Made by a program: the position numbers and the translations under genes. The notes below the pieces were generated by a model. The model saw only the letters and a program-made list of their open reading frames with translations. It was not told where the DNA came from and did no database searches. A DNA stretch of 64,000 nt, from contig NC_057759.1 of assembly GCF_004010195.1 (NCBI RefSeq), positions 4,737,661 to 4,801,660 of the forward strand, read 5' to 3'. Below are positions 19,576-64,000 of this stretch, piece after piece (positions within the stretch are counted from its first letter, which is position 1; the number at the start of each line of letters is the position of its first letter). The stretch comes from Chiloscyllium plagiosum (lineage: Eukaryota).

Positions 19576-19838
19576 TGCCCACCAACTTGTCCACCACCGA
19601 TGTCAGGAACACCAGTCTATTGTCGCCTGGTTTTTCCTTCTCCGTTTGTTTAAAAATGGCACAATATTAGTAAACCTAATGTCTTCCAGCTCCTCCTCTA
19701 TGGCATCGTTTGGTCAAAACATCTTTGGAAAGGACCCAGCAATCTGTCCACAGCTTTCCAGAGAGTTCTTGCGTACACTGATCAGGCCAAAACGGCACAT
19801 TCTTTAACATAGCATGTGGTTCGCATATGGGATGAAAT

Positions 19839-20635
19839 ATGCAGTACACCAGAACTGCAAAAAGAAGAAGAGGAACACCTATACAAGGTATTCGCCAAAA
19901 ACGGATACCCCCACAACTTCATCAACAGATGCCTAAGAGAAAGACCACGGAACGAGGACATACCACAACCAAAAGGACTAGCCACACTACCATACATCAG
20001 GAGCATCTCAGAACTGAGAGCCAGACTACTGCGACTCCTAGGACTCATAACGGCACACAAACCAACAGCCACGCTCAGACAACAACTCACCAGAATGAAG
20101 GACCCGATACCCAACATGAGCAAGACGAATGTAGTGTACAAAATACCACGCAAGGACTGAACTAAACACTATGTAGGACAAACAGGAAGACAGCTAACAA
20201 TCCGCATACATGAACATCAACTAGCCACGAAACGACACGACCAGCTATCCTTAGTAGCCACACCCACAGACAACAAGCAACATGAATTCGACTGGGACAA
20301 CACTACTATCATAGGGCAAGCCAGACAGAGAACAGCCAGTGAATTCCTAGAGGCATGGCATTCATCCACAAACTCCATCAACAAACATATCGACCTGGAC
20401 CCAATATACCAACCACTACAGCGGACAGCTGAAACTGACAACCGGAAGCGGCAGGGACAGACCACTTTCAACACCGGAGGAAACATCAAAGAAGCGCTTC
20501 GCAGGAGGCTCCCAAGCACTGATGATGTCGCCTAGCCAGTGGACGAAACGTTTGCAACAAAAACTTCCAGCTTCGCGAACAGAACCACAGCAACGAGCAC
20601 CCGAGCTACAAATCTTCGCACAAACTTTGAACAAT
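19839..20635 (+). mobile_element. 5'-truncated Penelope-like element (family C, Poseidon-like) with GIY-YIG and pLTR
   Basis: FAKNGYP..LPYI..NVVYKIP..*TKHYVGQTGRQLTIRIHEH..FLEAWH; 13-bp TSD TA(T/C)GGGATGAAAT at 19826-19838 and 20636-20648, inside a CR1 3' end. Confidence 0.9.
20516..20555 (+). ncRNA. Minimal hammerhead ribozyme motif in Penelope pLTR
   Basis: GCA-CUGAUGA-U-GUC..GAC-GAAAC-GUU-UGC. Confidence 0.7.
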
Positions 20636-24484: not shown

Positions 24485-24580
24485 AAGTCAAAACGTGTGG
24501 TGCTAGAAAAAGCACAGCAGTTCAGGCATCATCCAAGGAGAAGGAAATTCGATGTTTCGGGCATGAGCCTTTCATCAGGG
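24485..24580 (-). mobile_element. Penelope family A pLTR fragment with hammerhead core
   Basis: Minus strand CUGAUGA-AAGGC-UCAU-GCCC-GAAAC-AUC at 24551-24578; matches the arm at 6530-6620. Confidence 0.65.
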
Positions 24581-44964: not shown

Positions 44965-45255
44965 TTCTGCAGAACATTTTATACCTGACATTCACCAGAA
45001 CATTGTATCCCCAACATTCCATGGAACATTCTGTACCGGACATTCCCCAGAACATTGTATACCCCGAATTCCGTGGAACATTGTACAACAGACATTTACT
45101 GGAGCATTATTACCCGTTATTACCTCGAACATGCTATAGCCAAATTGCCTGGAGAATCCAATAACTGACATACCCGAAAATATTCGAGAAATGACATTTC
45201 CCAGAACATTCTGCAAGCAGCATTCCATGGAACATTTTATATCCGACATTTCTTG
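44965..45255. repeat. Degenerate minisatellite, ~26-bp unit, about 11 copies
   Basis: Units approximating CCAGAACATTGTATACCCGACATTCC. Confidence 0.75.
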
Positions 45256-45836
45256 GACCTTTCTCTAACTGATAATATTTGTGAAAAGCTGGACGTCTGT
45301 GAATTGAACAAAGGATAGGATCCTCAAGGGGTGAGAGCCCGTTCCAGGGAGAAGAAGGCACTCTTCTGAAGCCACCTCAGGTAATTAAAGGGGTGGATAC
45401 AGTTTCCCTGTATTTAACTTTCTTTGTGACAGAGGGTCACATACATGTTAGACGAAAAGACAGAAAGTTCTAAACTCTGTTTGACTTCAAGGAGCTGGGA
45501 GTGAATCCTTCAGGGCGGCTATGTTTTCAACCTGTGTCTGAGGAACTGTAAAGAAGTGATCTGTGTCTGTGCTTGAGTGATTGAGTGCGTGGGAATTTTC
45601 TAGAAACTATTTATTCTCAGCATATTTGTCTGTGTGTTTGGGGAGGGAGGGTAGATTTTGTCTTATATCACATTTTTCGAAATAACACAGAAAATGCCAC
45701 TTGTTATTTCAACTCCAATTATTTCAGTACATCGTTGAATACAGTGGCATGTTTGAAAATCTTTCTCTGCCCTCCATCAAACTGGGAATTTTGACCCCAG
45801 GCTGATGCATAATTTGTTTGTTTTCCTTCCTCACAG

Positions 45837-46744
45837 TTAATGTAATGACGATCTACGTCTTGCTTTATAAAGATTGTGGATTGTCTCCATGTGTCAGACG
45901 TTACCTAGTGGCCATGGCAGTGGCGGATATGCAGGTCATTATACTCGACCTGATATTGAGACACATTCCCATTGTTTATAAGGAACAGTTTTATTTCCTG
46001 GAGTCCATCCCATTGTGTAATATTCACGCTGTTCTGCTTTATGCAGCCACTGACTGTTCAGTCTGGTTCACCGTCGCTTTCACCTTTGATAGATTTGTGG
46101 CCATTGGTTGCCACAAGCTGAAAAGGAAATATTGCAGTGAGAGAACAGTGGCTGTGGTTCTGGGAACACTAACTGTGCTGAGCTGTTTAAAGAATATTTT
46201 CTGGTATTTCATGGTCTCAGATCGATATGGGATGTGGAACTCCCCCTGGTTTTGTGAGGGAAGAATTGGTGTTCTTGAATCTCGTGCCTGGGCCGCAATC
46301 AGGTTCCTCCACCACATTCTAAACCCAGCACTCCCATTTCTCCTGATTCTGCTGCTCAATGTTTTCACGGTCAGACACATTTTAGTGACCAGCAGAGCAC
46401 GCAGGAGACTCCGGGCTCCCACCAACGGGGGTGCTCAGTGTGACACAGAAATGAGAAATCGAAGAATGTCAATCATTTTACTGTTTGTGATCTCGGCCAA
46501 TTTCATACTGTTATGGTCAACGTTAATGGTATATTCTATATGGATACAGATGAAGTGGATTGGCTATCGGTCTGTGTATCTCCATCCTTTTATGCGGAAA
46601 TTGGGATTCACGCTGCAGCTCCTCAGTTGCTGCACAAACACCGCAATTTATGCTGTGACCCAAACAAAGTTCAGAAAGCAGCTGAAGAATGTACTGAAGT
46701 ATCCCTTTACCAAAATTCATCAAGCAATCAAATTCACTCATTAA
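45837..46744 (+). CDS. GPR139/GPR142-like orphan class A GPCR, main coding exon (mid-TM1 to C-terminus), intact
   Basis: Acceptor TTTTCCTTCCTCACAG ending at 45836; open frame with CGLSPCVRRYLVAMAVAD, SVWFTVAFTFDRFVAI, LPFLLILLLN, SIILLFVIS, LLSCCTNTAIY..TQTKFR; AATAAA at 46953-46958. Confidence 0.9.
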
Positions 46745-47419
46745 TCAATCCATCCATGCTTTTCTCATTTCAGTTCAATGTTTCAGCAATGAGGCAGCCT
46801 GTGGCTATTGAAACAGTGAGAGGGTAATGCTGGTTTATGCAACCTTATCACACAGGAGGCAACAGGGACACATTTAATGTTTCTCTAAAGTCAAGGGACA
46901 GTGAAAAAAGGCACCATCCCACTGAATTTATTTATCACTTCAATTTGTGAACAATAAAAATGGTCAATCAAAAGTGAATTACATTGTTGTTTGTCTTCCT
47001 GTTGATGCATCTGAGCTGGAGACAAGCAGACTCATAGAGTAGTAGGGGCGTGAAATGTGCTGTCTATAACAGTAGAAGTCAACTTTCAGTGCATTTAAGT
47101 AGACGTTTGATAAACAGATTTATGAAAATGAAATAATTTAGGTTAGATTGGGTTCAGAATGGTTTCACAGATGGCCATGACATCGAGGGCCGAAGGACTG
47201 TAATTCACATTAATGTTCTATGTTCTAGATTCAGCTCCAAGTTCTGGTTCTCTGGGAAGGGGAGGGTTTGGAGCGGAGATCAGGATTTCCTTTTAAGTCA
47301 CTCTGTCCTTGTTTTCAAATCCGCTCCATCCATTGGGACCTGGCCTTGGCACATGTAAGCTTAACACTCTTGTTCTCTCTCAATCCATACCGAACATGAC
47401 AGTTGGCTAAAGTGAGGGG

Positions 47420-48260
47420 AGAGAGGTTGATGGGTAGGCAGGTAGGGGAAGTATGCTTGACTTTGGATAAATGTGCGGGGAAGTGAGCATGATGGTGGGT
47501 GAATGTGCAGGGGAGTCAGCATTACGGTGGGTGACTGTGTGGGGAAGTGACCATGGCGCTGGTGGTGTGTGTGTGTGTGTGTGTGTGTGGGGGGTGGTGA
47601 GTGAGGGTGACAGTGGGGNNNNNNNNNNNNNNNNNNNNNNNNNNNNNNNNNNNNNNNNNNNNNNNNNNNNNNNNNNNNNNNNNNNNNNNNNNNNNNNNNN
47701 NNNNNNNNNNNNNNNNNNNNNNNNNNNNNNNNNNNNNNNNNNNNNNNNNNNNNNNNNNNNNNNNNNNNNNNNNNNNNNNNNNNNNNNNNNNNNNNNNNNN
47801 NNNNNNNNNNNNNNNNNNNNNNNNNNNNNNNNNNNNNNNNNNNNNNNNNNNNNNNNNNNNNNNNNNNNNNNNNNNNNNNNNNNNNNNNNNNNNNNNNNNN
47901 NNNNNNNNNNNNNNNNNNNNNNNNNNNNNNNNNNNNNNNNNNNNNNNNNNNNNNNNNNNNNNNNNNNNNNNNNNNNNNNNNNNNNNNNNNNNNNNNNNNN
48001 NNNNNNNNNNNNNNNNNNNNNNNNNNNNNNNNNNNNNNNNNNNNNNNNNNNNNNNNNNNNNNNNNNNNNNNNNNNNNNNNNNNNNNNNNNNNNNNNNTGG
48101 AAATGTGTGGGAGTGTGAGGTGACAGCAGGGGAGTTTGTGGAAGAATGAGCGTGATGGTGGGCGAGTATGTGTGGAAGTGAGAATGACGGTGAGGAATGT
48201 GTGGGGTTTTGAACGCGACAACGTGGGAGTGTGTGGAGGAGTAAGCATGATGGTGAGGAA
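47420..48260. repeat. GT/G-rich low-complexity minisatellite spanning an assembly gap (47619-48097)
   Basis: Repeated GTGAG..ATGATGGTG units and (GT)n on either side of the N run. Confidence 0.75.
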
Positions 48261-48309
48261 TTCTGAAGGTGTCCCAATGGGGAGGATCACCCAACAGCAT
48301 ATGCTACCT

Positions 48310-49570
48310 GGGTTTGGCTGATGCTAATTCCAAATATGCTGAGATAGAAAAGGTTTGGCTGTCATCTTTGGTGTAATAAATTTCCAACAATATCTTTACG
48401 GACTTAAACTTGGCATAACAACAGACCACAAACTTCTGATGTGCGAGGTAAAGAAGACAAAGCTGTGTCGCCCATAGCTTCTGGTCGAATTCTAGCCTTT
48501 ATTCTCAGTGCCTAGAATTACAAGTTGCAGAACCCTCCAGGAGCCAACTGGTTGCTGTGAGTGTCTTGAGCTGCCTTATACTGTCAGATACAGCGTTAGT
48601 GTCACCTCCCTGGAAGAGGCCATTATGTTTTTAAACGTTCGGTCCATTCGTCCACTCACCACTGACCATATCCGAATGTGTACACACACATTAAAAAAAA
48701 GCCCTGCCAAAACTAAAACAGCTGGAGTTAGTGGGAGAAACAATCTGGCCATCACAACTGCAACTGAAACTTTTGGGACCCAGCAATGTCACATCAGCGT
48801 GCAGGACCGCATATTACTATGGGGAGCAAGAGTGAATCTCCTGAGAAAATATCCTCGGCAGAAACTGGCTGAACTCCAGCAGCAGCATCCACGGGTTTCC
48901 AAGGTGAAGTTGTTGGCAAGACGTTACGTCTGGTGGTCAGTATTGAATATCGACATTGCTGCGTTGGTGGCTGTCATGAAAATTAAATCGATTTAACTGA
49001 AACGCTAGCAAGCGCCAAGAAAAAGTTTATTTTTAACCTCTGAAAGACGCCTGATAGCTTTGACATATTCCCTTTATACCATAATTCACTTCACCTTATC
49101 AACACCTCAAGACCAGGAGTCTGGAACATTCGAGTTCCTTTCCGTACATGGAGGTGTTTTTCTCATTCCTTGACTGTTGATATGGTAGTTTACTGGCCTT
49201 GTAAGTCTTGCTGTTAGGTCGGTTTAACGTTACATTTTTTTCTATCTGTCCGCAATGCTTTGCAAAGTCCGGCCCTCACTTCTTTGTTTCCCTATGCTTT
49301 TATAGATTTCACAATAAATGTTCATTTTCCATTACAGTGTTGCAGTGCCCAGAGTGAAAACAAAGATAAAACCTACCGCCAGCAGTACCTCCACCATCGT
49401 GGGAACGGCCAGGCAAACCCTTGGACTCAGTAACACGTCAAATATGCCGGGCATTTTTAGAGATGAATATCCCTGATTGTTGTGAATGCCCATTCAGAAT
49501 GGTTGGAGGTGAATAACGTTTGTCCAGCTAACACATGGATATCGATTGAAAAACTGCGAACATCGTTTTG
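48310..49570 (+). mobile_element. Ty3/Gypsy pol remnant (RNase H and integrase), interrupted at ~48975-49330
   Basis: YAEIEK..LAVIFGV..FQQYLYG..TTDHK; HPRVSKVKLLARRYVWW; decayed W..PGKPW..H..YAG..LIVV.AHSEWLEV. Confidence 0.8.
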
Positions 49571-49869
49571 AATGGGGGGGATCAGAACGCTGAACTTTGC
49601 ATTGAATTGTTTCCTCTTTCCGCCCGTTAACCCTCTTTATTTCTGTTACGAAAATCATCTCCTTTATCCATACCATAGTGTTGTGACCACTATCAATAAC
49701 GTTTTCCCTTACTGTCACGTCGAACATCTGCACAGCTCCATTCCCCAGATTGATGTCCAAACTGTATTGTTCCTTGTAGGACCATCTGCACGAAACGCGG
49801 TCATATGTACATTTCAGTACAGCTGGCCTCACTAAACACTTTCTACTGTTATGATCGTAATTAATATTG

Positions 49870-50940
49870 GGGGAAAAAGAATAATTTCCGATTTAATTAC
49901 CGAAGTTTGGAATTTAAAACTATTATAAATTGGCAACATTTATGATCCTCAAATGCCGCTGACTGTTAGGAGCCTATAATATACTCCTACCCGTGTGACT
50001 GCCGCTTTTGACAGTACTTCAATGATAGACCCCTCCTTAGTGCAGTATCTGGATCGATAACTAATAATGCGACGCCAGCTCTGTGTTTGTACTCTCCTCT
50101 GCCTTGGCTGGTGACCCTGTATGCTGGAGTGTAAACTTGTCTGGGGCGTCATTTCATCAAGCAGTTCTCTGTGTCAATCTATGCTCAACCAGTCTGTTTT
50201 AGCTCTAATGTTTCTGCCATCCATACACGTCTTTGACGCTTGAGACATGACACAGCTGAAATGGCTTTGCCTTGGTTCATTTACTAATTGATGTTGTGCT
50301 TCTATTGAGGTAATTCAGTTTGAACTCTGTTGAAACACGTGAAACTCCTCGCAACAGCACATGTCCTACCTGTTAACTGATCACATTCTGATTCGAGTTT
50401 TCTAGTCTGCGCGGAGAGCACCCACCTTCCCCAGAAATGATGCATGTGATCTAGAATCAAAACGCTCCCAATTCTTGGGCCAGTCGTCCATCTGCTGTAT
50501 CCTCCTATTTCTGTGCTCATTAGCCCATGGGATTGTGTATGATCTTGAGACTATAACCTTCAGAATCTTACTTATTGATATTGTCGCTACCCGTACTGGT
50601 TATACAAGGCCTTATCCCTATTACGAGCTATGTCACTAATGCGTGCCATGGCCTCTGCCTTATTATTGTTTCTCTTCAGGATGCAATACAACCAGTCAGC
50701 AGCATCAGGGGGACAACACACTAAATTGGAAACACGGAAGCGCCGACCTACTCCTTTAACTGATGAATCACTTATCACCACTGTTCCATCTTTCTTGTTT
50801 CCTTCCTCCAGTACGACCAGCCCGTTTTGGATGCCAGAAGGAAAGTCCTCACTGCATTTTCTAGATATGCCAAACCTTCCTAAATTCCAGACAGAAAACC
50901 GGCTTATGAGTGGAGCCACAGGAGCCTTCTGCACTGTATG
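49870..50940 (-). mobile_element. Decayed CR1 5' part (ORF1 esterase and start of endonuclease)
   Basis: VVISDSSVKGVGRRF..VCCPP; TRVGVYYR. Confidence 0.65.
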
Positions 50941-50954
50941 CCTGTTGATTAGCC

Positions 50955-52300
50955 TTTTTTATTTATTCACTTTGTATGATGTGGGGTTCACTGCCTGGCA
51001 AGCATTTATTGCCCGTCCCTCGTTACCCATGAGAAGGTGGTGGTGAGCTACCTTCTTAAACTGCTGCAGTCCACCTGCAGAAGATTATCCCAACAATGCC
51101 ATTAGAGGGAGGGAATTCCAGGATTTTGTCGCAGTGACTGTAAAGGGACATTGACATGTTTGCAACTCAGAATGGTGAGTGACTTGAAGGGAAATTTGAA
51201 AGTGTTGGTGTTCGGAAATGTTTGCTGCCCTTATCCTTGGAAGTGGAAGTGGCCGTGTGTTTTGAAGGTGCTATCTGAGGATGTTAGGTGAATTTCTGCA
51301 GTGCATCTTGTCGATAATTTCTACTGCTTATACTGAGTACTGGATTTGGAGGGAGTGGCCACTTCCTGATGCAATGCCAATCAAGGAAGCTGCTTTGTCC
51401 TGGCTGGTTTCAAGCTTCTTTAATGTTTTTGGGGGTGCACTCATCCAGGCAAGTGGGAAGTGTGACATCACACTCCTGACGTGTGCCTTGCAGATGGTAT
51501 AAAGGCGTTGAGGAGTCTGGAGGTGAGTTAGGCCGCAGTATTCATAGCCTCTGATCTGGTCTTGTAGCCACTACGTTTATGTCGTGAGTCCAGTTGAGTT
51601 TCTGATCAATGAACACTCCAGGATGTTCGGGATTGGGGATTCATTGATGGGCTATATTTGGTACAAATGCTAGTTGTCAGTTGTCAATCCAAGCCTTGAT
51701 CATGTCCAATTCTTGTTCCATTTGGACACGGACTTTTTCAGTGTCTGAGGAGTCGTGAATGGTGTGGAGCATTGTGCAATCATCAGTGAGCATCCCCACG
51801 TCTGACCTTAAAATGGATGGAAGGTCACTGATGACGCAGCTGATGGTTGGACCGAGGAACCTAATCTGAGAAACTCTTGCAGAGGAACTGACTTGACTGA
51901 CCTCCAACAAACGTGACAATTGTCTGATGTGGCAGGTATGACTCTAAACACTGAGAATGTGCCTCATGATAACCATTCTTTCCAGTTTTGCTAGGCTGAA
52001 TTGATGGGCTATTGGGTTGAGTGCAGCCTGGATGCCAGGATGTCACTCTCATATCACCTGTGGTCGTCAGTTCTTTCGTCCATGTTTGGACCAAGTCTGT
52101 AATGGTGCCAGAAGCTGAGTGGCCCTGGCGGAACCCAAACACAGCAGGGTATTGCTGAGCAGGTGCTACTTGATAGCGCTGTTTATGACAACTTTCATCA
52201 TTTCACTGATGATCGAGAGTAGATGCTGAGCCGTTAATTATCCGGTTTTATGTGTAGTACATACTTGGACAATTTCCCATATTGTCAGGTAGATGGAACA
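50955..52300 (-). mobile_element. LINE (CR1/L2 clade) RT and 3' end
   Basis: FGFRQGHSASGTITDLVQTWTKEL; LGPTISCVISDLP..MLTDDCTM. Confidence 0.8.
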
Positions 52301-52525
52301 GTTTTCTGGGAGAGGGTCAGGTTCTGGAGCACAAATCCTATCGGCCCTTTATCTATGGTGTGACAACTTAAAGAACTTTCAAACTTAATTTAAAGACACA
52401 TTATTTCTTATAAGAGCATGCCACGAAGCGTCCCTACAACTTTTACATACAGGCGTCAGTTGGATCTAGTCAGCAACCGCACCACGGATGTGTCTTGCTG
52501 AACAGCAGTCTCTATACTTTAACCT

Positions 52526-52762
52526 AAGTTAAAAAAAAATCACACAACACCAGGTTATAGTCTAACAGTTTTTTTCTGGAAGCACTAGCTTCTGGAGTGT
52601 TGCTCCTTCATCAGGTAGTTTTGGGGCAAACCCACTATCAAATGATGAAGGAGCAGCACTCCAGAAACTAGTGCTTCCAGATAAAGCTGTTGGACTATAA
52701 CCTGGTGTTGTGTGGTTTTTAACTTTGCACATCCCAGACCAAAACCAGGACCTCCAATTCAT
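52526..52762. mobile_element. Short palindromic Penelope family B hairpin
   Basis: Inverted arms 52526-~52620 and ~52630-52725 match the termini of 11003-12650; one-sided tail to 52762; ribozyme GAAA box mutated in both arms. Confidence 0.85.
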
Positions 52763-54346
52763 ACTTAATTCCAGCACACCATTGAATGCATTTCTAACCA
52801 TGACCTGTGTGCAGCAAGTTGAAAGTGCAAGCTTTATTTTTGTCCTTTCAAAGCAGCAATCTTATTCATGATGCAACATCAGATATGATTCCAAAGCAAG
52901 CAAATGTTCTTCAACTCGATTTTTAAGATTCTGTCAGGCATTATTAAGTACAGCATCGAGCGAAATAGAAAATACGGAGAGACACTCATTCCAAAACCAC
53001 ATTCTCAGGAAATCGGGTTCAATCTTGAGTTAAAAAGTGAAAAAATCTCTTGTCCCACGGAGTAGCTATAAACCCCACAGTGGGTAATCTTCATAAAGCA
53101 ATTGATAAACTCCAACGCTTGCAATGGGCAGGGCAAATGCTATTGATGGAATAGCTAAACACATCAAACAAACAAAATGCCTTTCCTGCACTCAAAGAAA
53201 GTCTTTATGAAGGTTCCAAAACGTTACTATCGCAAACAGACAGATGCTATTGTCAGGACACTGAATGTTTCTATCCCGCCATCTATCAGAATTAATAATG
53301 CATCTGGAAATTATTGGCAGCTTTTTATGTACAAAGTCTTCCGAATCAGCGGCAAATTGATTCTGGAAACAGCACATCAATTGCAAAAGATTTCTTATTA
53401 AGACTCCGATAAGACGCGTGTGAAACAATAACTTGACTAAAAATGAAAGAAAAACTGCAAGTGTATCCAAATTGTAGTCTCAGGGAACTATTTGATGTTA
53501 ATGAGCGCTGGACAACATACACAAAACATGTTGCTCCTTGTCCGTCACGATACACCACATATCTGGTTAAGACAATGTCACCAATTCAGAGTTCCAGTAG
53601 TGTGCTAATTCATTCTCGATGTAATTAGTCTAATCCACGAAGTATTTCTGCCTGAGGTCTATGCCCCAGATAAATATTTGCAGTGCATGCAATCAATTTC
53701 TAACTGGTGAACTGGAAATTGTTTCGAGACCTTTTGAGCAACATTTTTTCTTCTTCTTTTTGACAAGGGCATTTGCGATTACCATATCAAAAGATCAGAG
53801 ATGATGAATAACTTGGAGTATCACTCATTTCTGCAATTATGGAGAAATAGCTGTTTGGAGCAGCATAAGAGGGTGCAGAAATGTCTAACTTAAACACCAA
53901 GATGATACTGCACCGTGACGCCAGAGTCTTTAAAATGACTTGGTGAAAGTGAACACAGAGTTGAAAAGCGTAAATCTTGGCATTTCCGGACAGAAAGCCG
54001 TCATTGAAGTATTATATCTTCAAACATATTTCTCACTGATGTGTTCAGTTATAATATCGCACTTCAGGATCTGATGGGACCGGCACCCAGGCTGTCCTGG
54101 TACTGCGATAAAGACACTGCCAGTGCACCACAAGGACCTACAGCATTTGACTTTAAGACTGTGCATGCTTACTGATTTATCCTTAATATGACACTGCCAG
54201 TTCTTAATTATCCAGCTTATGATGTCCGTGCCAGACATTTTATGCATTTGTTTGTTTTCAAATATTCTATTTCCTCGTTTGGGAGAAGATTTGTAGCTCG
54301 GGTGCTCGATGTTGTTGTTCTGTTCGCCGAGCTGGGAATTTGTGTT

Positions 54347-54386
54347 GCAGACGTTTCGTCCCCTGTCTAGGTGACATCCTCAGTGC
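54347..54386 (-). ncRNA. Minimal hammerhead ribozyme motif
   Basis: Minus strand GCA-CUGAGGA-U-GUCACCU-AGAC-AGGGGAC-GAAAC-GUC-UGC. Confidence 0.75.
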
Positions 54387-54528
54387 TTGGGAGCCTCTTG
54401 TGAAGCGCTTCTGTGGTATTTCCTCCGGCATTTATAGTAATTTATAGTGATATATTTATAGTGATATATACAAATCACTATAAATGCCGGAGGAAATATC
54501 ACTGAAGCGCTTCACAAGAGGCTCGCAA

Positions 54529-54568
54529 GCACTGAAGATGTCACCTAGACAGGGGACGAAACGTCTGC
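54529..54568 (+). ncRNA. Minimal hammerhead ribozyme motif
   Basis: GCA-CUGAAGA-U-GUCACCU-AGAC-AGGGGAC-GAAAC-GUC-UGC. Confidence 0.75.
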
Positions 54569-56834
54569 AACACAAATTCCCAGCTCGGCGAACAGAACCA
54601 TAACAATATCCTATTTTCTGTTCCCGTATCTTCTAGTTAACTTTTGTATTTTCTTCTTTTCATCGCTGTTTAGCCTCATTTACTTGACTGCTGATACATT
54701 CAATAATACAACTTACATTTTAGCGTTCCTGTCGTTTTATAATACTATCTATTCGCATGATAGAGAATAGATAGTATTACAAACAATTTAGAAGAGAATT
54801 TAGAATAACTTATTTGAAAACCCAACCGACTGTTTTGCAACTGATAAAACTTTTGCAATCTCTGCAACATCGTGTAAACACCTCCCAGGCATAATGTAAA
54901 TTCAAACACTCGAAGTAATTGAACTTGGAGAAGTGGCCACTTCCCTGCCATTATTCAAAGTAACGATTCCCAGATAAATCTGCAAGAACAACATAGCCTT
55001 TCTTTAAAGAGGCAGCATCTTCACGATCACTCACTCGCAGGCAAATAAACACACCCGTATCAGAGCTCAAAACGCACAAATGTAACATGATCTTTGAGAT
55101 CACATTTCTATATGTTACCCAAAACAATTCACTCTTCCTCCACCCTCAAATATATTTAGTCCTGACACTAAAATATTTTCTCTGATGAGTACAGTAAACT
55201 GATGGTTTTTTTCACCACACATTTCCGAACATGGAAGGCTTATGTCGCTCTGAGCATTAATTGAGACTTTCTCGCAACTTATAAGAAACTGTTACAGTAT
55301 TGTGACGGGATTAGTTTCCACCATGCCTATTTGTCCTTGGTGTTCAGCTGCATGAATCAGTCAGTTTGCAGGGTTGACTGCTGAATAAGTTTTCTTGATT
55401 TTCTTCAGTGTTCTTACTTCTCTTTTCAAGCCAGAACTACTTTATTGTATTCTATTCCTTTTCTCCACTTCCATATGCTTCGTCCCAGCCACTTCTACAA
55501 TCTATAAACAATCCCCAGGTGCAGCAGTGAACATCCCCACAAGTCCTCCGGAGATGCAATGCATTCCTTTGAAAAGGTTGTGCCTGACCATGAATTGACA
55601 GCAATACCACAACATTATAACCATACAGTTCTCAGCAAGTCTTAAACCAACAATGAACCTCCCTATCATTCTATTCTCACTTAAATGTGCCAACAGGAAC
55701 AAGGTACAGATTCTGTGTCCTATATTGTAATTTCCTCACTTAGCAGGTCTTCTTATAACACTGCAATCTCTCGGGATGGTGTACACAATAAATTCAGAGA
55801 CGTATCTGTCAGCGATTTGTTAACATTAATTTACTCCATAGTTAGATTTTAATTTCATATCTATATCCACTGAAACATTTTTTTCAGTGGACGTTTGATT
55901 AATTTTGTTGTACATAAGGCGTTTTAAACGCACTTGAAGGAGTCGATAGGGCAGAGAGAGAGCAAGCACTGAGATTTTCCGACATTACCTAATTCACAAC
56001 AGGATGGGTCAATTTCCTTCTATTCTGGTTTATCGTTTTTTCTCCCAATGTCAGCTTCACAGACCCGAACGGAAGTAGTTGAAAACATAACGGCAATTTA
56101 CTCCTGTATTACATCGCAGTTGGAAACTGAATTTGATTGTTGCCATAGGGTCCTATAGCACGGAGACAAGCCTGTTGGCCCAAACTGGTCCATGCCGTCC
56201 ACAATCTCTGCCCACACTAACCCCATTTCCCAGCACTTGACGCATATCCTTCTGTTGCTTTCCTATCCCCTCTTGTGTTTACGATGTTCCATCTGTCTGA
56301 AACGGTAAATCATATACGTAAAACAAACTTCTGAGAGAAACATAATGTGAAGTAGAACCAAAAGTTTCAATAATCAGGTCGAGAAACTGGGGACAACATG
56401 TGTGTGGCTGTGTGTGTGAGAGAGAGAGAGACAGGGAGCGAGGGAGAGAGTTAATCAAACAGTGAAAAGTAGAGAATGGGAATGAGACAGTGTGACATTG
56501 GCCATAGCATAAACCATAGCATGAATGCATTGAGTAACAGGAGGTGGCGCAATATCTGTGATGGTCAGAGTGAATTTCGAAATACAAGATTGACATTTTT
56601 TTTAAATTGCTTATGAGTTTGAAGCAATATTGAATTCCAATGGCAGAATATTTTTTAGAAACAAATCAAACATGATACAAATGAACCGCAAAGCAGACCG
56701 GGTGGGCTTAATGGCACTGACATTTGTTATCTGATACTACATTTCAATGGATATCCAAAAACTCATGACCCTAACGTAACAGGTCCCCACTAAAAGTAAA
56801 TCGGACCACTGAGCTGATGCATGAGCAAGTTCTA

Positions 56835-57741
56835 TTAAGAAGGGAATACCTTCAGTTTTTTGCTGAAGTTTAACATCAGGCTCTTTAGATATTTGAGGGC
56901 ACTCTTCAAGTCTGCCCTGAATTTACTCTGAGTTCCAGCATAAAAAGTGGGTTGGTACAAGAACTCAAAAGCTGAAACATGATTCCGATTTCTTCCAGAA
57001 TAAAGTTTAATTTGTTGGAATTGTTTCCGGAATAATAACTGACTCTCGCAATCCTGACGTACGGGAAAGTTATGAGAACCCAAATCCATGGGAGTATGAA
57101 GTTCCCTGAGATGGCGAAGAGTAAAACAATAGACTTTCTGCGGTTCTCCATCTCAGGGTCACATTTACCTCCATTGCTCTGGATCGGTAGTCTCCTACGA
57201 ACTTTACTGACCACTTGAATGTGTCTGACAGTCCGAGCATTGAGCAACAGAATCAGCGTGAATGCGAGGCAAGGTGTTAAAATATGAAGAATCAGGTCGT
57301 ATGCTACCCAAGCTGATGACGTATAAAATATGATTTTAATGCAGCAAATCCAGGGTGTATTGTTAATTATGTACAAAGGTTCATATATGATATACAGGAA
57401 AGAACATATAAAACAGCACACTATGAAAACCACTCCAATTATATATGCCGCAGTTTTCTTTCATCTTCTGGCAACAAATAGCTATAAGTCGATCAAAAGT
57501 GAAAGCCATTGTTAGCCAGGTGGAGCTGCCTAGTGCGACAATGTTTAACATAGCACTGAAACCGCATAACGGTGTAATAGAAAGGAAACTGACTGGGAAG
57601 TAAATACTACAAATCCTGTTTAATATCACGGCGGCAAAAATGACAAGAAGATCGGATACTGCCAACGACATCAGGTACCGAGTGACACATCTCGAGAGGG
57701 CTCATCTTCCTTGGATAGAACCACAATGGCCGCCGTATTAG
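56835..57741 (-). pseudogene. GPR139-like GPCR pseudogene, exon 2
   Basis: Acceptor TTACAG then (A)NTAAIVVLS; pieces in different frames: YLMSLAVSDLLVI..TMAFTFDRLIAICC, LTPCLAFTLILLLN..DPEMENRRKSIVLLFAIS..LLSSCTNP, FYAGTQSKFR; at least 3 frameshifts. Confidence 0.9.
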
Positions 57742-58199
57742 CTGTAACATACACACACAGAGTGAAAAGGGTGAGCATACAGAAAAAGAGGGAAAGTGTA
57801 CCCCCTTGCTTTGTTAGGGATTGGTGTGATGGAGATGGGAGGTCAGGAGGACGACTGTTTGGGATAGCAAATAGAAATCTACCTATTCAAAAGACAATCA
57901 GATTTTATGTAGTTTTCTTAAGATCAATCTCCAATACACATTCGAATACCATCACTTTACTAGCCTATGCGGTTTCTTTGCTGACTCTATGCCTGTTGAT
58001 TAATCCTTGACATGCCGATCTGAATTAGTGACATGAAACTTAATAAGAATGATGAATATGCCATATATTTGTCGAAATTAAACAAAAAATAAACGAGACT
58101 GAAACACCCTGCTCCTAGTCCAGAAGGCAAACTTTTTCACTTACGAACATGTGGCAATGAACCCGTTCAAAAATGCATTCAGAGATTTGTTTTAAAAAA

Positions 58200-58362
58200 T
58201 CTGAAGATTTTGGAATGCAGGAGGCTGGAAGAACACTGCAGGCTAGGCTGGAAGAACACTGCAGGCCAGGCAGCATCCGGCGGTGTAGAAGTCGGCGTTC
58301 GGTTGAAACCCTTCTTCAGAACCATTCCGAAGAAGGATTATACCCGAAACGTTAACTTCTCC
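58200..58362. mobile_element. Penelope pLTR-derived partial hairpin in the GPCR pseudogene intron
   Basis: CCCTTCTTCAGAA..TTCCGAAGAAGG..CCCGAAACGTT; same family as 63775-63940; contains a 23-bp tandem duplication. Confidence 0.6.
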
Positions 58363-58480
58363 CCCCGAAAATGTATTCAAGCAGACAAAGACGAACGGGT
58401 CGTTAGCTTTATGTGAAATGTGGCTGTTACGATTGTTACGTCTCCATGATTATTCCTGGAGCACAGTTGGGAAGTCACGT

Positions 58481-58700
58481 ACTACATAGAACATACAAAA
58501 ATACAGCGCAGTAGAGGCCCTTTGGCCCCCATACCTGGAAAAAGATTCTCACTGTCGGCCCTATCTAAACCCCTAATCATCTTGTACACCTCTATCAAGT
58601 CACCCCTAAACCTTCTTTTCTCCAATGAAAACAACCCCAAGTGCCTCAGCCTTTCCTCATACGATCTCCCTACTATACCAGGCAACATCCTGGTAAAACC
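58481..58700 (-). mobile_element. CR1 3' fragment
   Basis: FTRMLPG..SYEERLRHLGLFSLEKRRFRGDLIEVYKMIRG. Confidence 0.85.
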
Positions 58701-59359
58701 AGGATGAACCTGCAGAGTTGAACCACAGGATGGGGCAGAATTTGAGGTCTGAATCGTAGAGGATAATTTCCTCATCTACTGACGAGAAGCAGAAACACTG
58801 CCGCTAAGCAGGATAATGTCGCTTTTAGGATTATACTTTAAATTTCATGGAACAACATATGAATTCAATAATTTCAAATAGGGAGCTACTTTCAAAACAT
58901 CCATTGACGCGTAATTAACAGTGCATCTTCACTTTCACGTTGATACCGAGTGACAAATTCCTCATTCTAAATGGGCAATAAACAATAAAACAATAAAAAA
59001 AATGCTGATATAAGCAATTGTGCAATTTGTGGAATGCAATGCGATTAGACAAGAGCAGATAATACCATTAATGTAAACAACTTAGTTATGTGAAGAAACC
59101 GTGTACAGAAGAGTTGACGTCATGCTGGTAAAGGGCGAACATGTAACACTAAGAAGAAAAAATTTAAACTGGAAACCTGTACATTTAAAGCAGTAAAAAC
59201 TGATACAGTAAAAGTAGGAAGTATGTCAACTTAAAGACAAGTACGTGATTGCTTTTCTTTTAAAAGATAAGCTGTCGCTATAAAATGAAACGAAGATATG
59301 CAGCAGTGAGTCAGTAAAACTGTGATTACCTCAAACAGTGGCTAACTGCTTTGATTTAC

Positions 59360-59427
59360 CTCGAACACCAATCGCTGCAAGGATAGGAGTAAATAGCAGA
59401 CATAAGGCTCTTTGGTTATCCGTGCAT
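59360..59427 (-). pseudogene. GPR139-like GPCR pseudogene, exon 1
   Basis: ATG CAC GGA TAA ... ATT TAC T CCT ATC CTT GCA GCG ATT GGT GTT CGA G|GTAAAT, i.e. MHG*...IY-PILAAIGVR with a phase-1 donor; one stop and one frameshift. Confidence 0.8.
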
Positions 59428-61001
59428 TTCTTCAGAAATGTGAACTCTGCAGTTCATGGAAATATATACTTAATGTCAATTTTTTTTAACATGAATGATT
59501 CTAATTGAATCAAACATATTTATAAAGTTGCTGACAATTTAATTTTATTATTTTGAAAAGTTATATTTGACTTTTAAAAAGTCGCACATACATTCACGAT
59601 GGAGGCCCATAGACCATTCCATGACATCAGATATGCTTCATTATTATTTATAAAAAAAAATAAGAAGTAGCCCCATTGGTTCAACGAGCATTTGTTCAAT
59701 AGAAAATTATTGACATAAGGGCCTTCCTGCCGAGTTAGGTGGTTTGAGCATAATCCATTACTGATCAATGAAAGGCGGTCTGTGTTGACATCCCGAAACA
59801 CTGCATGTGCACTCATTCAAGGATGTCCATGAACAGAGCTCCATTCCCGCTATGTGACGTGAAATTTCGATGAAGACACACAGAAGTGGCACTACACAGC
59901 TGCCAAGAAGTTATTATGTCACTGAGCAATTAATGCAAAACCTTGACTTGATGATACTGTACTGGTATGTGGCTAAATGCCATCATGAAAAGTAGTGAAA
60001 TTTGAATTCAATAAAAATCCAAAGTCGAAAGCCAGCAGAATGTTGTATTTTTAAACTAAATATGATTCTCTCATGTATTTCCGGGATTTCTTTTTGTTGT
60101 TCTTGCCATTGATTTTTACATGCAAGAAGGTACAATCGAGTTTTGCAATCGTAACTCCACTGCTTTGTCGACCATCTAGATGAAATGTTGATTCATGACC
60201 TATACTTCTTCTTCACTTCCAAGGAAAAGTCCGTTTGGTACAATGTTGATACTGATCCTCAATAAGCAGGATAAAATCAGAATATCCAATCAACAACATG
60301 GATTTTGTCTTCTTTGTCTGCAAACTCATTGTCACGGTTTCCAGCATTATAACAACGATATAATTTCAAAACTGACTCATTAATAGCAAAGATGCATGTA
60401 GCACCTCTCGCTGTGAAAAGTGCAATGTCCTCGCGGCAACTTCTCATTCTTTCTTCCTCGATTATCATTGCCTATAAAGTAATAGTGTCACACCAGTTTA
60501 TCAGCGAATGGTACATCCTTCCCTGCCACAGTCTCCAATAATATTCAAATCATTTATTCCACAAATGCTGATCTAATAACTACACTATTCTTTCAAACAA
60601 ATGTTGGAAAGCAAATACTTGCATAACATTGCACTGCGTTAATTTCTTGTACTTCAGACAAAACAATTTGTTGAATTCGCAGAAAAGAATATTGGGCGTT
60701 GAGTTTAATTGCTTTCAAGGAAACACCTTTTGGGAGACAACAAGAAAATCCGGAATCTGCTTGCTACCGTCAGTACGTTTTGGCCCTGACAGTAAGAGCG
60801 AATTCAGATTATTAAACAATTTGTTTTCTTGGTTCACTTATTGTTTGTTGTTTTCCTTCCCCATTGTTTCGTGAAATTATAGGTTCTCAGTTTAATTACT
60901 GATCAAGACGTCACAGGACACTGTTGTAAATTGTTGTTCAGAAATACTCAGTTGGAATAGAAACCTGTTCAGAAAAAGACATGAGCCATTTCACTCACTC
61001 A

Positions 61002-61595
61002 TGTCATGGATCAGGCCAGAACATGTCAAAACATTTCAAGAAGGCAGCTTAGGCCCTAACTTTGCTCGTCGTTTTAAGCAGGTGTAGAGTAGATGTTCGA
61101 GGAGTGATGCAGCTGGCCAAACCACAGAGTAAGTGAATCAGAATTTATTTGCACATTTACCGAAAGACACAGACTAACTAAATTATTTAAAAACTCAACA
61201 GACCACCAATTTATTGATGTTGTTCCAAATTCCTGCAACAATCCCCATAAGCACCCCTTGGCAAGAAAGGTTAAACCAAACACAGGGTATTACAGGAGAG
61301 TGAGATGTCAGAGCGGTTCAGCATGGAACACCTTCTTCCGTGTAGCAGTTTCTTTTGGATTCAAAGCTAACAAGTGACCAACAGTTCTGAACACTCAGAT
61401 TGCTAAAGAAAAATCAAAGCAATCCAAACCAGGGAAAAGCTGAGCTTGGAGAACTGACGACTCAACATTCATTGTTTGTTTTAAAACTGAAAGGCTTCTT
61501 CAACTAGATATCACCGGGCATTTCAGAATCTATGCGTTTACGATCCCTCTAAAAAAAAGACAACGTAAAATTGTTAACATAGCAGCATGGCCACA
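61002..61595 (-). mobile_element. Probable solo LTR
   Basis: TG...CA termini, flanks CTCA/CTGA (3 of 4 TSD match), ends similar to 40816-41453 in reverse. Confidence 0.55.
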
Positions 61596-62369
61596 CTGAG
61601 AACATAGAGCATTGAACTTGACCGATAAAAGAGTAATTGCTCCAATTAGTCATCAAAGCAGAGTAACTTTAGTTTTGAAAACAAAAACAGCTTCCCAGAA
61701 AAAGACCACGTTCGAAACATTTCATAAAATGAAGTGTAGGAAGAAAGGTACAAAAGTGTAAAATAATGGATTATGGCTGATGCCTGTTCCCATTAAAGAA
61801 TTCCTCTATGTTACACAAAATGTTATGTATGCTCCCGGTTTGATAGGATGGTCCACATGATTGAATATTATCACACAGTTTCCAGGGGAAATAAAAGTTC
61901 AACTGGCACGAGGAAATGGACATGACGCATCAAGATAGAGGAAAAGGTGTGAAGTCCGCATGAAAAACAAATAACGATCAGTTGTTATTTTATTTGACAT
62001 GAAGAGGTGGCCTGTTGTCATTTTACTGAACTCGTTATAAAGTATTCCCGGCTACAAATGTAAAGGCAAACGTTTAAAACGTTACATAGTAGCCATGGGG
62101 GCTTACATTCAAGTAAAAAGATTTGTTGTTCCCCTCTGAAACACGAAAAAAAGCTATCACCAATTACTATGAACCACAATTCTGGCTCATGAATGTTCTA
62201 TCATCAAGGCCAGCTGCCATCCTTACACCTTCTGTTTTCAGCATCAGTACGACTGGATGAGAAAGTCTAACGTTGCAGCGCACTGAGTGTGGAGCCTGAA
62301 ACATTCATATGGCCTAGAAACATGAATTCACGGCGGGCAGGGCCTGCACACGCAGCTGCAGCTACTGCC

Positions 62370-63125
62370 ATGGAGAAACCCGAGGAATGCCACCACGTGG
62401 ACTAACCGTGGAAGTGGGGCAACGTGCGTGCCACGTTTGCCTTGGAGACTTATGGGTGCAATCACACTGGGGAGAGACTGTTCTCCTGCACCGAGTGTGG
62501 GAAGAGCTTTCCCAAGCCTCCCACCCGGTTTCCCACTGGCAGGTCCACACCAAGGACTGGCGGTCCACGTGCCCCGTGTGCAGGAAGGGTTTTACCCAAG
62601 CCTCCTGCCTGCTGTCCCACCAGCAGGTCCACACTGGGATTGGCGGTCAACCTGTCCCATGTGCAGGAAGGGCTTTACCCAATCTTCCCACTGGCGGGTC
62701 CACACTTGTGACTGGCCGTTCACCCACTCTATTTGCGGCAATAGTCTGAACCACTCCTCCCACCTGATGGCCCACTAGTGGGTCCACAAGGGAAATCCAT
62801 TTCTCCTGCTCCAGATGCAGGAACGGCTTCACTCAGGCCTTACACCTCCAGATGCGCTGGTGTGTGCAGAAGGGGGAGAGTCTGTTCTTGTGCCCCAAGC
62901 GCGGGACGGGCTTCACTCTCTCTTTCCACTTGCTGATCCACCGGTGACTCCACATTGGGGAGAGGTCCTTCAGCTATCCCGAGTATGGGGAGGGTTGACC
63001 CACTCCTATCACCTGATGATTCATTGGCGGGTCCATGTTGGTAAGAGGTTGTTCACCTGCCTCGAGTACGGGCACATGTTAACGTTGCCCTGCAACGTCC
63101 GGAGGCACCCACAGCGGCAACCAGT
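62370..63125 (+). pseudogene. Intronless C2H2 zinc-finger pseudogene
   Basis: MEKPEECHHVD*PWK, HTGERLFSCTECGKSF, CPVCRKGFTQASCLLSHQQVHTG, HWRVHVGKRLFTC spread over several frames with stops. Confidence 0.85.
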
Positions 63126-63264
63126 GATCCCAACAATCAGACTCCACCGGTGTCGCTGCTGTGGGTCTCTCCCAGGATTGAAACTTCTGCCCATTCTGAC
63201 AGTGGGTGCAGTCAGAGAGTTGATGGGCATCTTGTTTTGTTTTCTGTAGGAAGCCACGGTGCTC

Positions 63265-63625
63265 AGGGGTGGCACAGTGACTCAGCGGCTGGCACTGCTG
63301 TCTCACAGCTTCAGGGACACAGCTCGATTCCACCTTTGGACTGAATGTCTGTGTGGAGTTTGCATGTTCTCCCTCTATTGTTTGCGTGGCTTTCCTTTGA
63401 GTGCACTGGTTTCCTCCCACAGTCCAAAGATGTTTAGGTTAGGGTGAACTGGCGAAGCTAAATTGCCCGCATTGTTCAGGGATGTGCATGTGTGATGCAT
63501 CATTTATGGATAAAGGTAGGCTAATAGGGTAGGAGAACGTGTCTGGGTGGGTTAATGTTCGGAGGGGCAGTGTGGACTTGTTGGGCCGAAGGGCCTGTTT
63601 GCACATTGTCTGGATTCTATTGTTC
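63265..63625 (+). mobile_element. Older tRNA-derived SINE
   Basis: Shares CTCCCACAGTCCAAAGATGT core and GTGGACTTGTTGGGCCGAAGGGCCTGTTT 3' part with the other copies. Confidence 0.8.
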
Positions 63626-63774
63626 TATGCACTTTGCTTTCAGTTGGCGCTGCTGCTCGTTGCCCCCAGGCTGCACGTCCCCACTGAAACGATCTGCAGA
63701 AACTTGAGACCACAAGACCAGCAGAGCAGAAGTTAGGACATTCGGCCAATCGAGTGTGCTCTGCCAGTCGTTGG

Positions 63775-63940
63775 AGACAAAAAGAAAGCTGCAGATGTTG
63801 GAATCCAAAGTAGGCAGGTAGGAGGCTGGGAGAACACAGCAAGCCAGGCAGCACCAGCTGGTGGAGAAGTCAGAGTTTCCTGTATTGACCCTTTTTCAGG
63901 ACTGAAGAAGTGTTCCACTCGAAACGTTGACTTCTCTATC
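63775..63940. mobile_element. Penelope pLTR-derived partial hairpin with hammerhead-like core
   Basis: CTGAAGA-AGTG-TTC-CACT-C-GAAAC-GTT at 63902-63928. Confidence 0.6.
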
Positions 63941-64000
63941 AACGAAGATTTTCCACGATGTTGCTGGGGATTGGAGGGTTTGAGCTAAAGGGAGATGTTG

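What the first reader, a model, noticed from the sequence alone, without database searches (positions are those of the whole stretch)
54276..54604. Young 330-bp non-coding hairpin element carrying an intact hammerhead ribozyme core on each strand
Seen in sequence: near-perfect inverted arms, a TSD-like flank (15 bp, 2 mismatches), and in each arm a full core CUGA(A/G)GA-stem II-GAAAC-GUC closed by a GCA/UGC stem I. Established: Penelope-like pLTRs carry minimal hammerheads with a vestigial, palindromic stem III that are thought to cleave as dimers. Inference: transcription from either side gives an RNA holding one ribozyme plus its antisense copy, so self-cleavage would compete with long dsRNA formation. 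It lies between the 3' ends of two convergent GPCR loci, where read-through is plausible.
Basis: partly seen in the sequence, partly recalled or inferred. Interest (0 to 1): 0.75.

Follow-up and report, generated by a model that had tools for sequence, protein, structure and literature searches.

The report
Back-to-back Penelope retrotransposon stub, shark
This 329-base DNA hairpin is real but ordinary: it is two back-to-back copies of the end of a very abundant Penelope-type jumping gene, and the small self-cutting RNA motif in each copy is predicted to be locked shut in any RNA that reads through the hairpin.

Summary
In detail: 54276-54604 has 137-bp arms (94% complementary), a 15-bp target-site duplication and a complete minimal hammerhead per strand. 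It is not a special hairpin element. Each arm is the 3' end of a Penelope/Poseidon-type retroelement: ORF end, hammerhead and ORF start. Only the left arm carries the 33-bp 'tail'. This layout is published (PMC3846280, PMC8557442), as are opposite-strand hammerhead pairs (PMC4209133). The 33-mer core occurs 7,492 times exactly, and 14 of 16 close pairs sampled face outward. The arms point outward, so any read-through RNA makes the antisense copy first; folding predicts the ribozyme is always paired, with no competition. Copies show no covariation and no measurable selection after insertion. The copy is not especially young: it predates a segmental duplication. One flanking GPCR is frameshifted, and no RNA reads lay in the unique right flank. 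Two side results: 30 of 32 unbiased palindromes have exactly one tail, and two junction types recur at unlinked loci, so some palindromes were re-copied. The scan noted such stubs before on other DNA.

The parts
54261..54275 (+). Left target-site duplication, 15 bp
   Evidence: perfect match to the right copy in paralogue L002
54277..54309 (-). 33-bp 'tail' of the Penelope-like element (about ORF nt +69 to +101), on this arm only; about 5 nt shorter than the family's usual tail end
   Evidence: reads and contigs from other loci leave the element at 54277 and 54310 in near-equal numbers
54277..54438 (-). Left arm: 5'-truncated 3' end of a Penelope/Poseidon-type element (ORF end, hammerhead, ORF start, tail), pointing left
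54347..54386 (-). Minimal type I hammerhead, left arm; predicted cut after 54350; the most common family sequence
54439..54468 (.). Central junction with short re-copied pieces of the arm end; 14 bp longer than in the paralogue; found only here and in the paralogue
   Evidence: (D1)
54469..54604 (+). Right arm: same element end without the tail, pointing right; TATAAA near its inner end, ORF stop at 54546-54548, ORF-start ATG at 54538
   Evidence: the same ATG frame continues into the RT ORF in L111
54529..54568 (+). Minimal type I hammerhead, right arm; predicted cut after 54565; differs from the left one only at the free position N7
54605..54619 (+). Right target-site duplication, 15 bp
19780..20630 (+). 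Context: longer 5'-truncated copy of a sister subfamily (GIY-YIG end, hammerhead at 20516-20555, tail) that identifies the parent element; left limit approximate
45806..46744 (+). Context: open 7tm_1 GPCR frame (312 aa), ending 7.5 kb left of the element
56889..57701 (-). Context: 7tm_1 GPCR paralogue with two frame changes (likely pseudogene), ending 2.3 kb right of the element

Best explanation
The feature is a single TSD-flanked insertion of two 5'-truncated, outward-facing copies of the 3' end of a Penelope/Poseidon-type retroelement, likely made when both strands of a staggered target cut primed reverse transcription at the element's two start sites, and its hammerheads are inherited passengers predicted to be base-paired shut in read-through RNA. 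Shown: identity of the arms, the one-sided tail, the TSD, the family's size, both arms sharing subfamily state, and a junction found only here and in the paralogue. Inferred steps: (1) the element's endonuclease cuts both strands about 13-15 nt apart; (2) one 3' end primes at the distal start site (tailed arm) and the other about 33 nt upstream (tail-less arm), on the same RNA or sibling RNAs; (3) both cDNAs stop after about 135-165 nt and are end-joined with short templated filler; (4) gap fill gives the TSD. Afterwards the stub decays like neutral DNA. About 0.95 that it is an inverted PLE stub, about 0.6 for the two-primer route, about 0.85 that it has no ribozyme-dependent host role.
For: Parent element: the same arm sequence ends a 658-aa RT plus GIY-YIG-type frame in L111, and its ATG frame opens the ORF there. 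RVT_1 hits are E 8e-7 and 1e-11. Best homologues are bamboo-shark proteins at 87-89%. Architecture: 63 of 72 examined loci hold an outward pair spanning 223-4020 bp, and 52 of the 63 have a >=10-bp TSD (loci were chosen by similarity, not at random). On C1, 14 of 16 close core pairs face outward and 0 face inward. 30 of 32 palindromes picked by their centre alone have exactly one tail (p 1e-7 against independent choice). An RNA run and a run of unrecorded kind show loose ends at the two sites in about equal numbers, 48/59 reads and 36/37 contigs. Arms of one locus differ by 4.2% against 7.5% between loci (0 of 5000 permutations), and agree at subfamily sites 51 of 54 times against 28 expected. 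Either arm can be the longer one at the centre. Ribozyme is a passenger: 40 of 110 arms are broken; arm-to-arm changes at critical sites number 21 against 26.6 expected, p 0.16; 20 of 32 informative near-full-length copies run through the whole upstream ribozyme and 1 of 32 starts at the cut. Literature: PMC3846280 (inverted pLTR, 31-bp tail, TSD), PMC8557442, and PMC11167929 (both strands cut and extended, two RT start sites bound the tail, ribozyme dispensable in vitro).
Against: The two-primer route is not shown: fold-back or self-priming (PMC3846280) also predicts arms of one subfamily and a central loop. In vitro, PMC11167929 saw no difference in start site between the strands, which does not by itself give a strict one-tail rule. 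Not every junction is new: two junction types recur at 4 and 3 unlinked loci. All 4 differences between subfamily majority ribozymes fall on free positions, so the ribozyme was kept intact in source elements, although overlapping reading frames confound this. CpG changes at critical sites are somewhat fewer than outside (17/167 against 71/444, p 0.07). TATAAA near each arm's inner end could drive outward transcripts that escape the hairpin; family reads in X10 are about 10:1 one strand, read as element-sense. Pfam GIY-YIG is only weak (E 0.025), and no tree with named PLE references was built.
Confidence: 0.82

Rival explanations
1. Same element, but built by fold-back: one cDNA (or an antisense template) self-primes at its truncated end and copies itself back, and the endonuclease resolves the intermediate so that a tail is left on one side.
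For: Proposed in PMC3846280 (Discussion, read whole); PMC8557442 ascribes the tail to EN-mediated resolution (passage). It explains shared subfamily state and perfect small central palindromes such as L074, L075 and L086.
Against: Either arm can be longer at the centre, by up to about 200 nt, and some joins hold nested inversions or filler. The window's join holds re-copied arm-end pieces rather than a clean loop. Both tail ends are RT start sites in Anolis (PMC11167929).
Confidence: 0.3
2. The short palindrome is itself a non-autonomous mobile unit, MITE-like or retrozyme-like, spreading as a hairpin.
For: One junction with a private one-arm variant occurs at 4 loci on 4 contigs, and another with a private 1-nt insertion at 3 loci, all with unrelated flanks. 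Two of these 7 (L114, L119) are bare palindromes with their own TSD.
Against: The window's junction occurs only here and in its segmental duplicate. Most of the 33 centres differ. Five of the 7 shared-junction loci are larger three-arm insertions, as expected if the junction came from a longer source element. There are no tandem ribozyme units, the mark of retrozymes (bioRxiv 10.64898/2026.07.22.740005, part 1).
Confidence: 0.07
3. One reading: GPCR read-through RNA either self-cleaves or forms long dsRNA, which would regulate or terminate the GPCR transcripts.
For: Both cores are intact; the GPCRs are convergent; a 137-bp duplex would be a plausible substrate for ADAR or Dicer (general knowledge).
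Against: The antisense copy always precedes the ribozyme. Single minimal hammerheads did not cleave and dimers cleaved weakly (PMC4209133); the Anolis ribozyme needed the element's protein (PMC11167929). The nearer GPCR is frameshifted. No right-flank reads. Both-intact cores are common, 25 of 59 loci.
Confidence: 0.05

Closest known systems
Insertion units of endonuclease-bearing Penelope-like elements, e.g. Pen2a_Av of Adineta vaga (PMC3846280) and the general scheme in PMC8557442
   Same: Head-to-head inverted pLTR, 30-40-bp tail on one end, TSD, pLTR that includes the ORF's first codons, TATA-like motif near the inner end.
   Different: Both halves are cut down to about 135-165 bp, with no ORF body; TSDs are longer here (median about 13 bp, against 8-10 bp quoted for A. 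vaga); copy numbers are far higher.
Poseidon of Anolis carolinensis, PAc (PMC11167929)
   Same: ORF starts at the start of hammerhead stem II; the cut lies 28 nt after the ATG (26 in PAc); two fixed element ends bound a tail; RT then C-terminal GIY-YIG.
   Different: Ends lie at about +68 and +101 to +106 here (PAc's initiation loop is given as +111-118). The stub lacks the first 172 ORF nt that PAc needs on its template. No direct sequence comparison with PAc was made.
Minimal hammerheads of metazoan PLEs, including Schistosoma Cercyon pairs on opposite strands 100-700 bp apart (PMC4209133)
   Same: Core without a stem III loop, palindromic 15.2-16.2, extra base between 9 and 10.1, G10.1-C11.1, long stem II, dual opposite-strand occurrence.
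   Different: Stem I is 3 bp (4-5 in S. mansoni), and stem II has an internal A.G mismatch.
Non-LTR retrozymes (bioRxiv 10.64898/2026.07.22.740005)
   Same: PLE-derived, non-coding, carries a type I hammerhead.
   Different: Retrozymes are tandem repeats with a ribozyme in each unit on one strand; here the copies are inverted, and no RNA holds two sense ribozymes.
LINE-1 twin-priming inversions (recalled, not from a call)
   Same: Both target strands likely prime cDNA; inverted join with microhomology or filler; TSD.
   Different: In L1 the two primers copy mostly different parts of the RNA; here both copy the same part, from two fixed sites about 33 nt apart.

Membership tests
EN+ Penelope-like element (parent family) | Single ORF with RT and C-terminal GIY-YIG endonuclease | tested here: met
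   L111 holds a 222-aa and a 658-aa frame (one frameshift between them); RVT_1 E 8e-7, and L103 E 1e-11. VVYK..YIG with CxxC and two His is visible by eye; Pfam GIY-YIG is only E 0.025.
EN+ Penelope-like element (parent family) | pLTR made of ORF end plus ORF start, in partial tandem or inverted arrangement | tested here: met
   The arm sequence is found at both ends of L111 and upstream of the ORF start in 36 of 40 long copies; outward pairs in 63 of 72 loci.
EN+ Penelope-like element (parent family) | 30-40-bp tail at one end, and a TSD | tested here: met
   33-bp tail at 54277-54309 and 15-bp TSD.
Penelope/Poseidon clade | [quoted passage not shown] | tested here: met
   No cysteines between the thumb region and VVYK in L043, L104 and L111.
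Penelope/Poseidon clade | RT phylogeny groups with named Poseidon/Penelope elements | not tested
   No named references were among the 120 listed homologues; no tree was built.
Minimal type I hammerhead of PLEs | CUGANGA / GAAA core, NUH triplet, stems I and II, extra nt after A9, palindromic 15.2-16.2 | tested here: met
   both arms
Minimal type I hammerhead of PLEs | Match to an Rfam hammerhead model | tested here: not met
   0 matches at gathering score; no hammerhead among 29 matches at E<=10.
Minimal type I hammerhead of PLEs | Covariation in stems | tested here: inconclusive
   0 compensatory changes in 110 arms; 4 of 4 subfamily differences at free positions; copies are too alike and coding overlap confounds.
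Minimal type I hammerhead of PLEs | Self-cleavage as dimer or with protein | not testable with these tools
   ViennaRNA cannot represent the crossed dimer; genomic 5' ends do not pile at the cut, 1 of 32.
Non-LTR retrozyme | Tandem units, each with a sense-strand hammerhead | tested here: not met
   Inverted, not tandem.
MITE-like or non-autonomous palindromic family | Many dispersed copies of one fixed unit with a shared centre | tested here: not met
   The window's junction is found at 2 places, one of them a segmental duplicate; small shared-junction groups exist for other copies.

The most novel reading that the evidence does not exclude
Poseidon-type elements integrate by obligate paired priming: one ribonucleoprotein uses its distal start site on one target strand and its proximal site on the other, giving the one-tail rule (30 of 32). 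The resulting inverted joins are heritable: read-through RNA, whose hammerhead is silenced by the upstream antisense arm, is re-copied, so palindromic stubs can seed small non-autonomous lineages. Shark genomes would then hold a thousand-copy fossil record of this reaction.
Probability: 0.3. Interest if true: 0.5.

Novelty: new member of a known kind. Interest (0 to 1): 0.2.

Why it matters
The locus itself matters little: it is one stub among many. The family data bear modestly on an open question, how Penelope-like elements make their inverted insertions and what their hammerhead does. The strict one-tail rule, the shared subfamily state of the two arms and the inherited junctions constrain the mechanism, and can be tested with the published Anolis Poseidon assay. 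Most long copies were made from RNA that was not cut at the ribozyme. Because all such pairs face outward, the roughly thousand hairpins would be sources of dsRNA rather than ribozyme switches when read through.

Tried and rejected
Rfam scans gave no hammerhead model; the miRNA hits are generic hairpin matches below gathering score. The 'open frames' over 800 aa that were fetched (5 loci) were assembly N gaps; a real long copy came. Cofolding two ribozyme copies gave a non-hammerhead duplex, and the program cannot hold the crossed dimer, so there is no verdict. A lead that long copies begin at the cut site (L112) was tested on 40 copies and rejected: 1 of 32 informative copies (the anchor was misplaced by 65 nt and corrected). 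Two attempts to map composite loci on a full unit failed on a bad anchor; only the pairwise part and the printed ends are used. The look-up of sequencing runs: no RNA holder listed. X11 laid 0 reads, so no test. The 3' single-cell library cannot show cleavage ends, so the absence of end pile-ups is weak. A-to-I editing could not be judged because the reads come from many loci. The sigma-70 promoter scan is irrelevant to an animal. Paper searches: 'Penelope' + 'twin priming' + 'inverted' gave 2 unrelated papers; 'Penelope-like' + 'shark' + 'hammerhead ribozyme' gave 1 review; one search showed nothing on paired start-site use; the primary paper on dimer cleavage of small PLE hammerheads did not appear among the 10 listed. 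The library lacks most subscription journals and Repbase, and no supplements were read (the PAc sequence and alignments of PMC11167929 and PMC4209133 may bear on clade placement). A fixed MITE-like family, a retrozyme and a GPCR regulatory switch were considered and ranked low.
Full report
Observation. The sequence holds a 329-bp insert at 54276-54604 between two copies of a 15-bp target site (54261-54275 and 54605-54619). The inverted arms are 137 nt and 94% complementary, and the RNA hairpin folds far better than all 100 shuffles (z = -29.7). Each arm carries a complete minimal hammerhead, at 54529-54568 (+) and 54347-54386 (-), with predicted cuts after 54565 and 54350. Rfam does not recognise them. 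The left arm extends 33 bp further than the right.

What the arms are. A core-motif scan found 7 matches in the window against 1.8 expected. One of them, at 20519, ends a frame that reads like the C-terminus of a GIY-YIG endonuclease and continues into sequence like our left arm. That peptide has 77,776 first-look candidates in the genome, 150 of them scored. Walking upstream through longer copies gave L111, a near-complete copy. Its ORF starts at the ATG inside the hammerhead, contains an RT (RVT_1) and ends, after the endonuclease, in the same arm sequence. The arms are thus the element's pseudo-LTR: ORF end, ribozyme and ORF start. The best protein relatives are bamboo-shark (Chiloscyllium punctatum) proteins at 87-89%, then unnamed metagenome proteins and flatworm proteins at about 39-55% (120 of 1334 listed), so the host is likely a bamboo shark or a close relative (inference). 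The linker lacks the Neptune-type cysteine motif, which points to Penelope/Poseidon; no tree was built.

How common. The left arm's 33-nt core occurs exactly 7,492 times (control 0). Among the first 100 places listed on C1, 16 neighbour pairs lie within 3.5 kb: 14 outward-facing, 2 tandem, 0 inward. That extrapolates to about a thousand such pairs. Of 72 loci examined (47 short ones chosen by similarity or by centre pattern, 25 longer ones chosen by a tailed end or an endonuclease match), 63 hold an outward pair spanning 223-4020 bp, and 52 of the 63 have a TSD of 10 bp or more (one mismatch allowed). The window's copy lies at the short end of a continuum.

How it was likely made. Thirty-three palindromes were picked by their centre alone. 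After dropping one tandem duplicate, 30 of 32 have a tail on exactly one arm, one has two tails, and one has none on its inner palindrome but a tailed arm further out (p 1e-7 against independent choice). Reads and contigs from two public runs leave the element at the same two points in near-equal numbers (48 and 59 reads; 36 and 37 contigs). In 59 of 61 non-duplicate loci (2 dropped as too short), arms of one locus differ by 4.2% against 7.5% between loci, and agree at subfamily-diagnostic sites about 51 of 54 times against 28 expected. Two CpG columns show no such agreement. Both arms were therefore copied in one event from one source. PMC11167929 (parts 1-2 of 4 of the text read) shows that the Anolis Poseidon protein cuts and extends both target strands and starts at two sites that bound the tail. 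Two-strand priming at the two sites is the simplest reading, but it is inferred. PMC3846280 (passages and the Discussion read) prefers self-priming, and PMC8557442 (passages) ascribes the tail to endonuclease resolution. The window's join holds short re-copied pieces of the arm end, which suggests end-joining (the mechanism is recalled, not tested).

Against 'every join is new'. One junction with a private one-arm variant occurs at exactly 4 places, and another with a private insertion at exactly 3, all with unrelated flanks. Five of these 7 are larger three-arm insertions and two are bare palindromes. Inverted joins can therefore be inherited from a source copy. The window's own junction occurs only here and about 157 kb away in an inverted segmental duplicate, so this copy left no detected dispersed daughters.

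Age. The duplicated block is at least 19 kb, about 97-98% identical, and includes both GPCR loci. The paralogue has a perfect TSD, so both mismatches arose later. The window's arms differ by 4.7%, against a median of 3.5%, and 36 of 59 loci are more alike. The copy is not especially young.

The ribozyme. It fits the minimal PLE hammerhead of PMC4209133 (parts 1-2 of 4 read). That paper reports dual motifs 100-700 bp apart on opposite strands in Schistosoma, no cleavage by a single motif and weak cleavage by dimers. In PMC11167929 the ribozyme needs the protein and is dispensable for insertion in vitro. Here, the isolated arm gives stem I a probability of at most 0.02. In the full RNA of either strand the antisense copy comes first and pairs 39-40 of 40 ribozyme bases as they are made. 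Across 110 arms there are no compensatory changes, 40 are broken, and 25 of 59 loci keep both intact. Arm-to-arm changes at critical sites are not significantly depleted (21 against 26.6, p 0.16; CpG sites p 0.07). In favour of a role in the source elements, all 4 differences between subfamily majorities fall on free positions (naive p 0.0014, confounded by two overlapping reading frames, and the sister group is only 10 arms). Of 40 long copies, 4 had no adjacent pLTR match and 4 ended in gaps. Of the remaining 32, 23 extend upstream of the cut, 20 of them through the whole ribozyme; 8 start downstream and 1 starts at the cut. Uncut RNA is the usual template.

Context and expression. The GPCR frames are convergent. 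The left one is open and ends 7.5 kb away; the right one has two frame changes and ends 2.3 kb away. In a poly(A) single-cell run (2% read), 246 and 53 reads lay almost wholly on the arms and run on into other loci. They are about 10:1 on one strand, read as element-sense, and they cover the cut site without a dip. None lay in the right flank, and 2 divergent reads lay in the left flank. The family is transcribed; transcription of this locus is not shown, and the test is weak.

Verdict. The feature is real, and its layout is described in print for other animals. It is a new member of a known kind, and the proposed cleavage-versus-dsRNA switch is not supported. Earlier AI notes of this scan reached similar readings on other DNA; I formed my reading before seeing them, and they are not counted as support. 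Interest 0.2. The one-tail rule and the inherited junctions are the parts worth following.

Noticed in passing
L114-L117 (G000 C1:87398360, C2:135611440, C6:54793820, C16:29236212) and L118-L120 (C12:13046547, C12:64621642, C20:31645015): Two groups of insertions share a central junction and private variants at unlinked sites. In the first group the tail sits on opposite arms relative to the junction in L114 and L116. Five of the 7 are three-arm composites.
   Followed up: partly
window 44647-64000 and beyond, against G000:C50:4625000-4644999: Inverted segmental duplication of at least 19 kb, about 97-98% identical, holding both GPCR loci and the element.
   Followed up: partly
window 54418, 54398, 54497, 54517 against L002: At two positions the window's arms match each other in the non-majority state, while the paralogue has it in one arm only. 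This could be patchy arm-to-arm conversion or recurrent mutation.
   Followed up: no
window 56889-57701 (-): GPCR paralogue (45% identical to the 45806-46744 frame) with two frame changes; likely a pseudogene.
   Followed up: partly
window 24554-24578 (-), 63902-63925 (+), 11872-12258 (-): Hammerhead-like cores of other repeat families, and a GIY-YIG-like fragment of another Penelope-like family.
   Followed up: no
L111:250-2223 (-): After sharks, the listed named relatives of the RT are almost all from parasitic flatworms (Spirometra, Dicrocoelium, Clonorchis, Schistosoma; about 39-53%). This could be annotation bias or old horizontal transfer.
   Followed up: no
window 54736-54783: Second small palindrome (19-bp arms, 95%, 10-nt loop) 130 bp right of the element.
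   Followed up: no
L061-L065: Several long outward pairs have multi-kb assembly N gaps between the arms, so long inverted insertions are under-assembled in this genome.
   Followed up: no
window 54476-54481 (+) and 54432-54437 (-): TATAAA near the inner end of each arm; if it is the pLTR promoter, the stub could transcribe outward from its centre.
   Followed up: no
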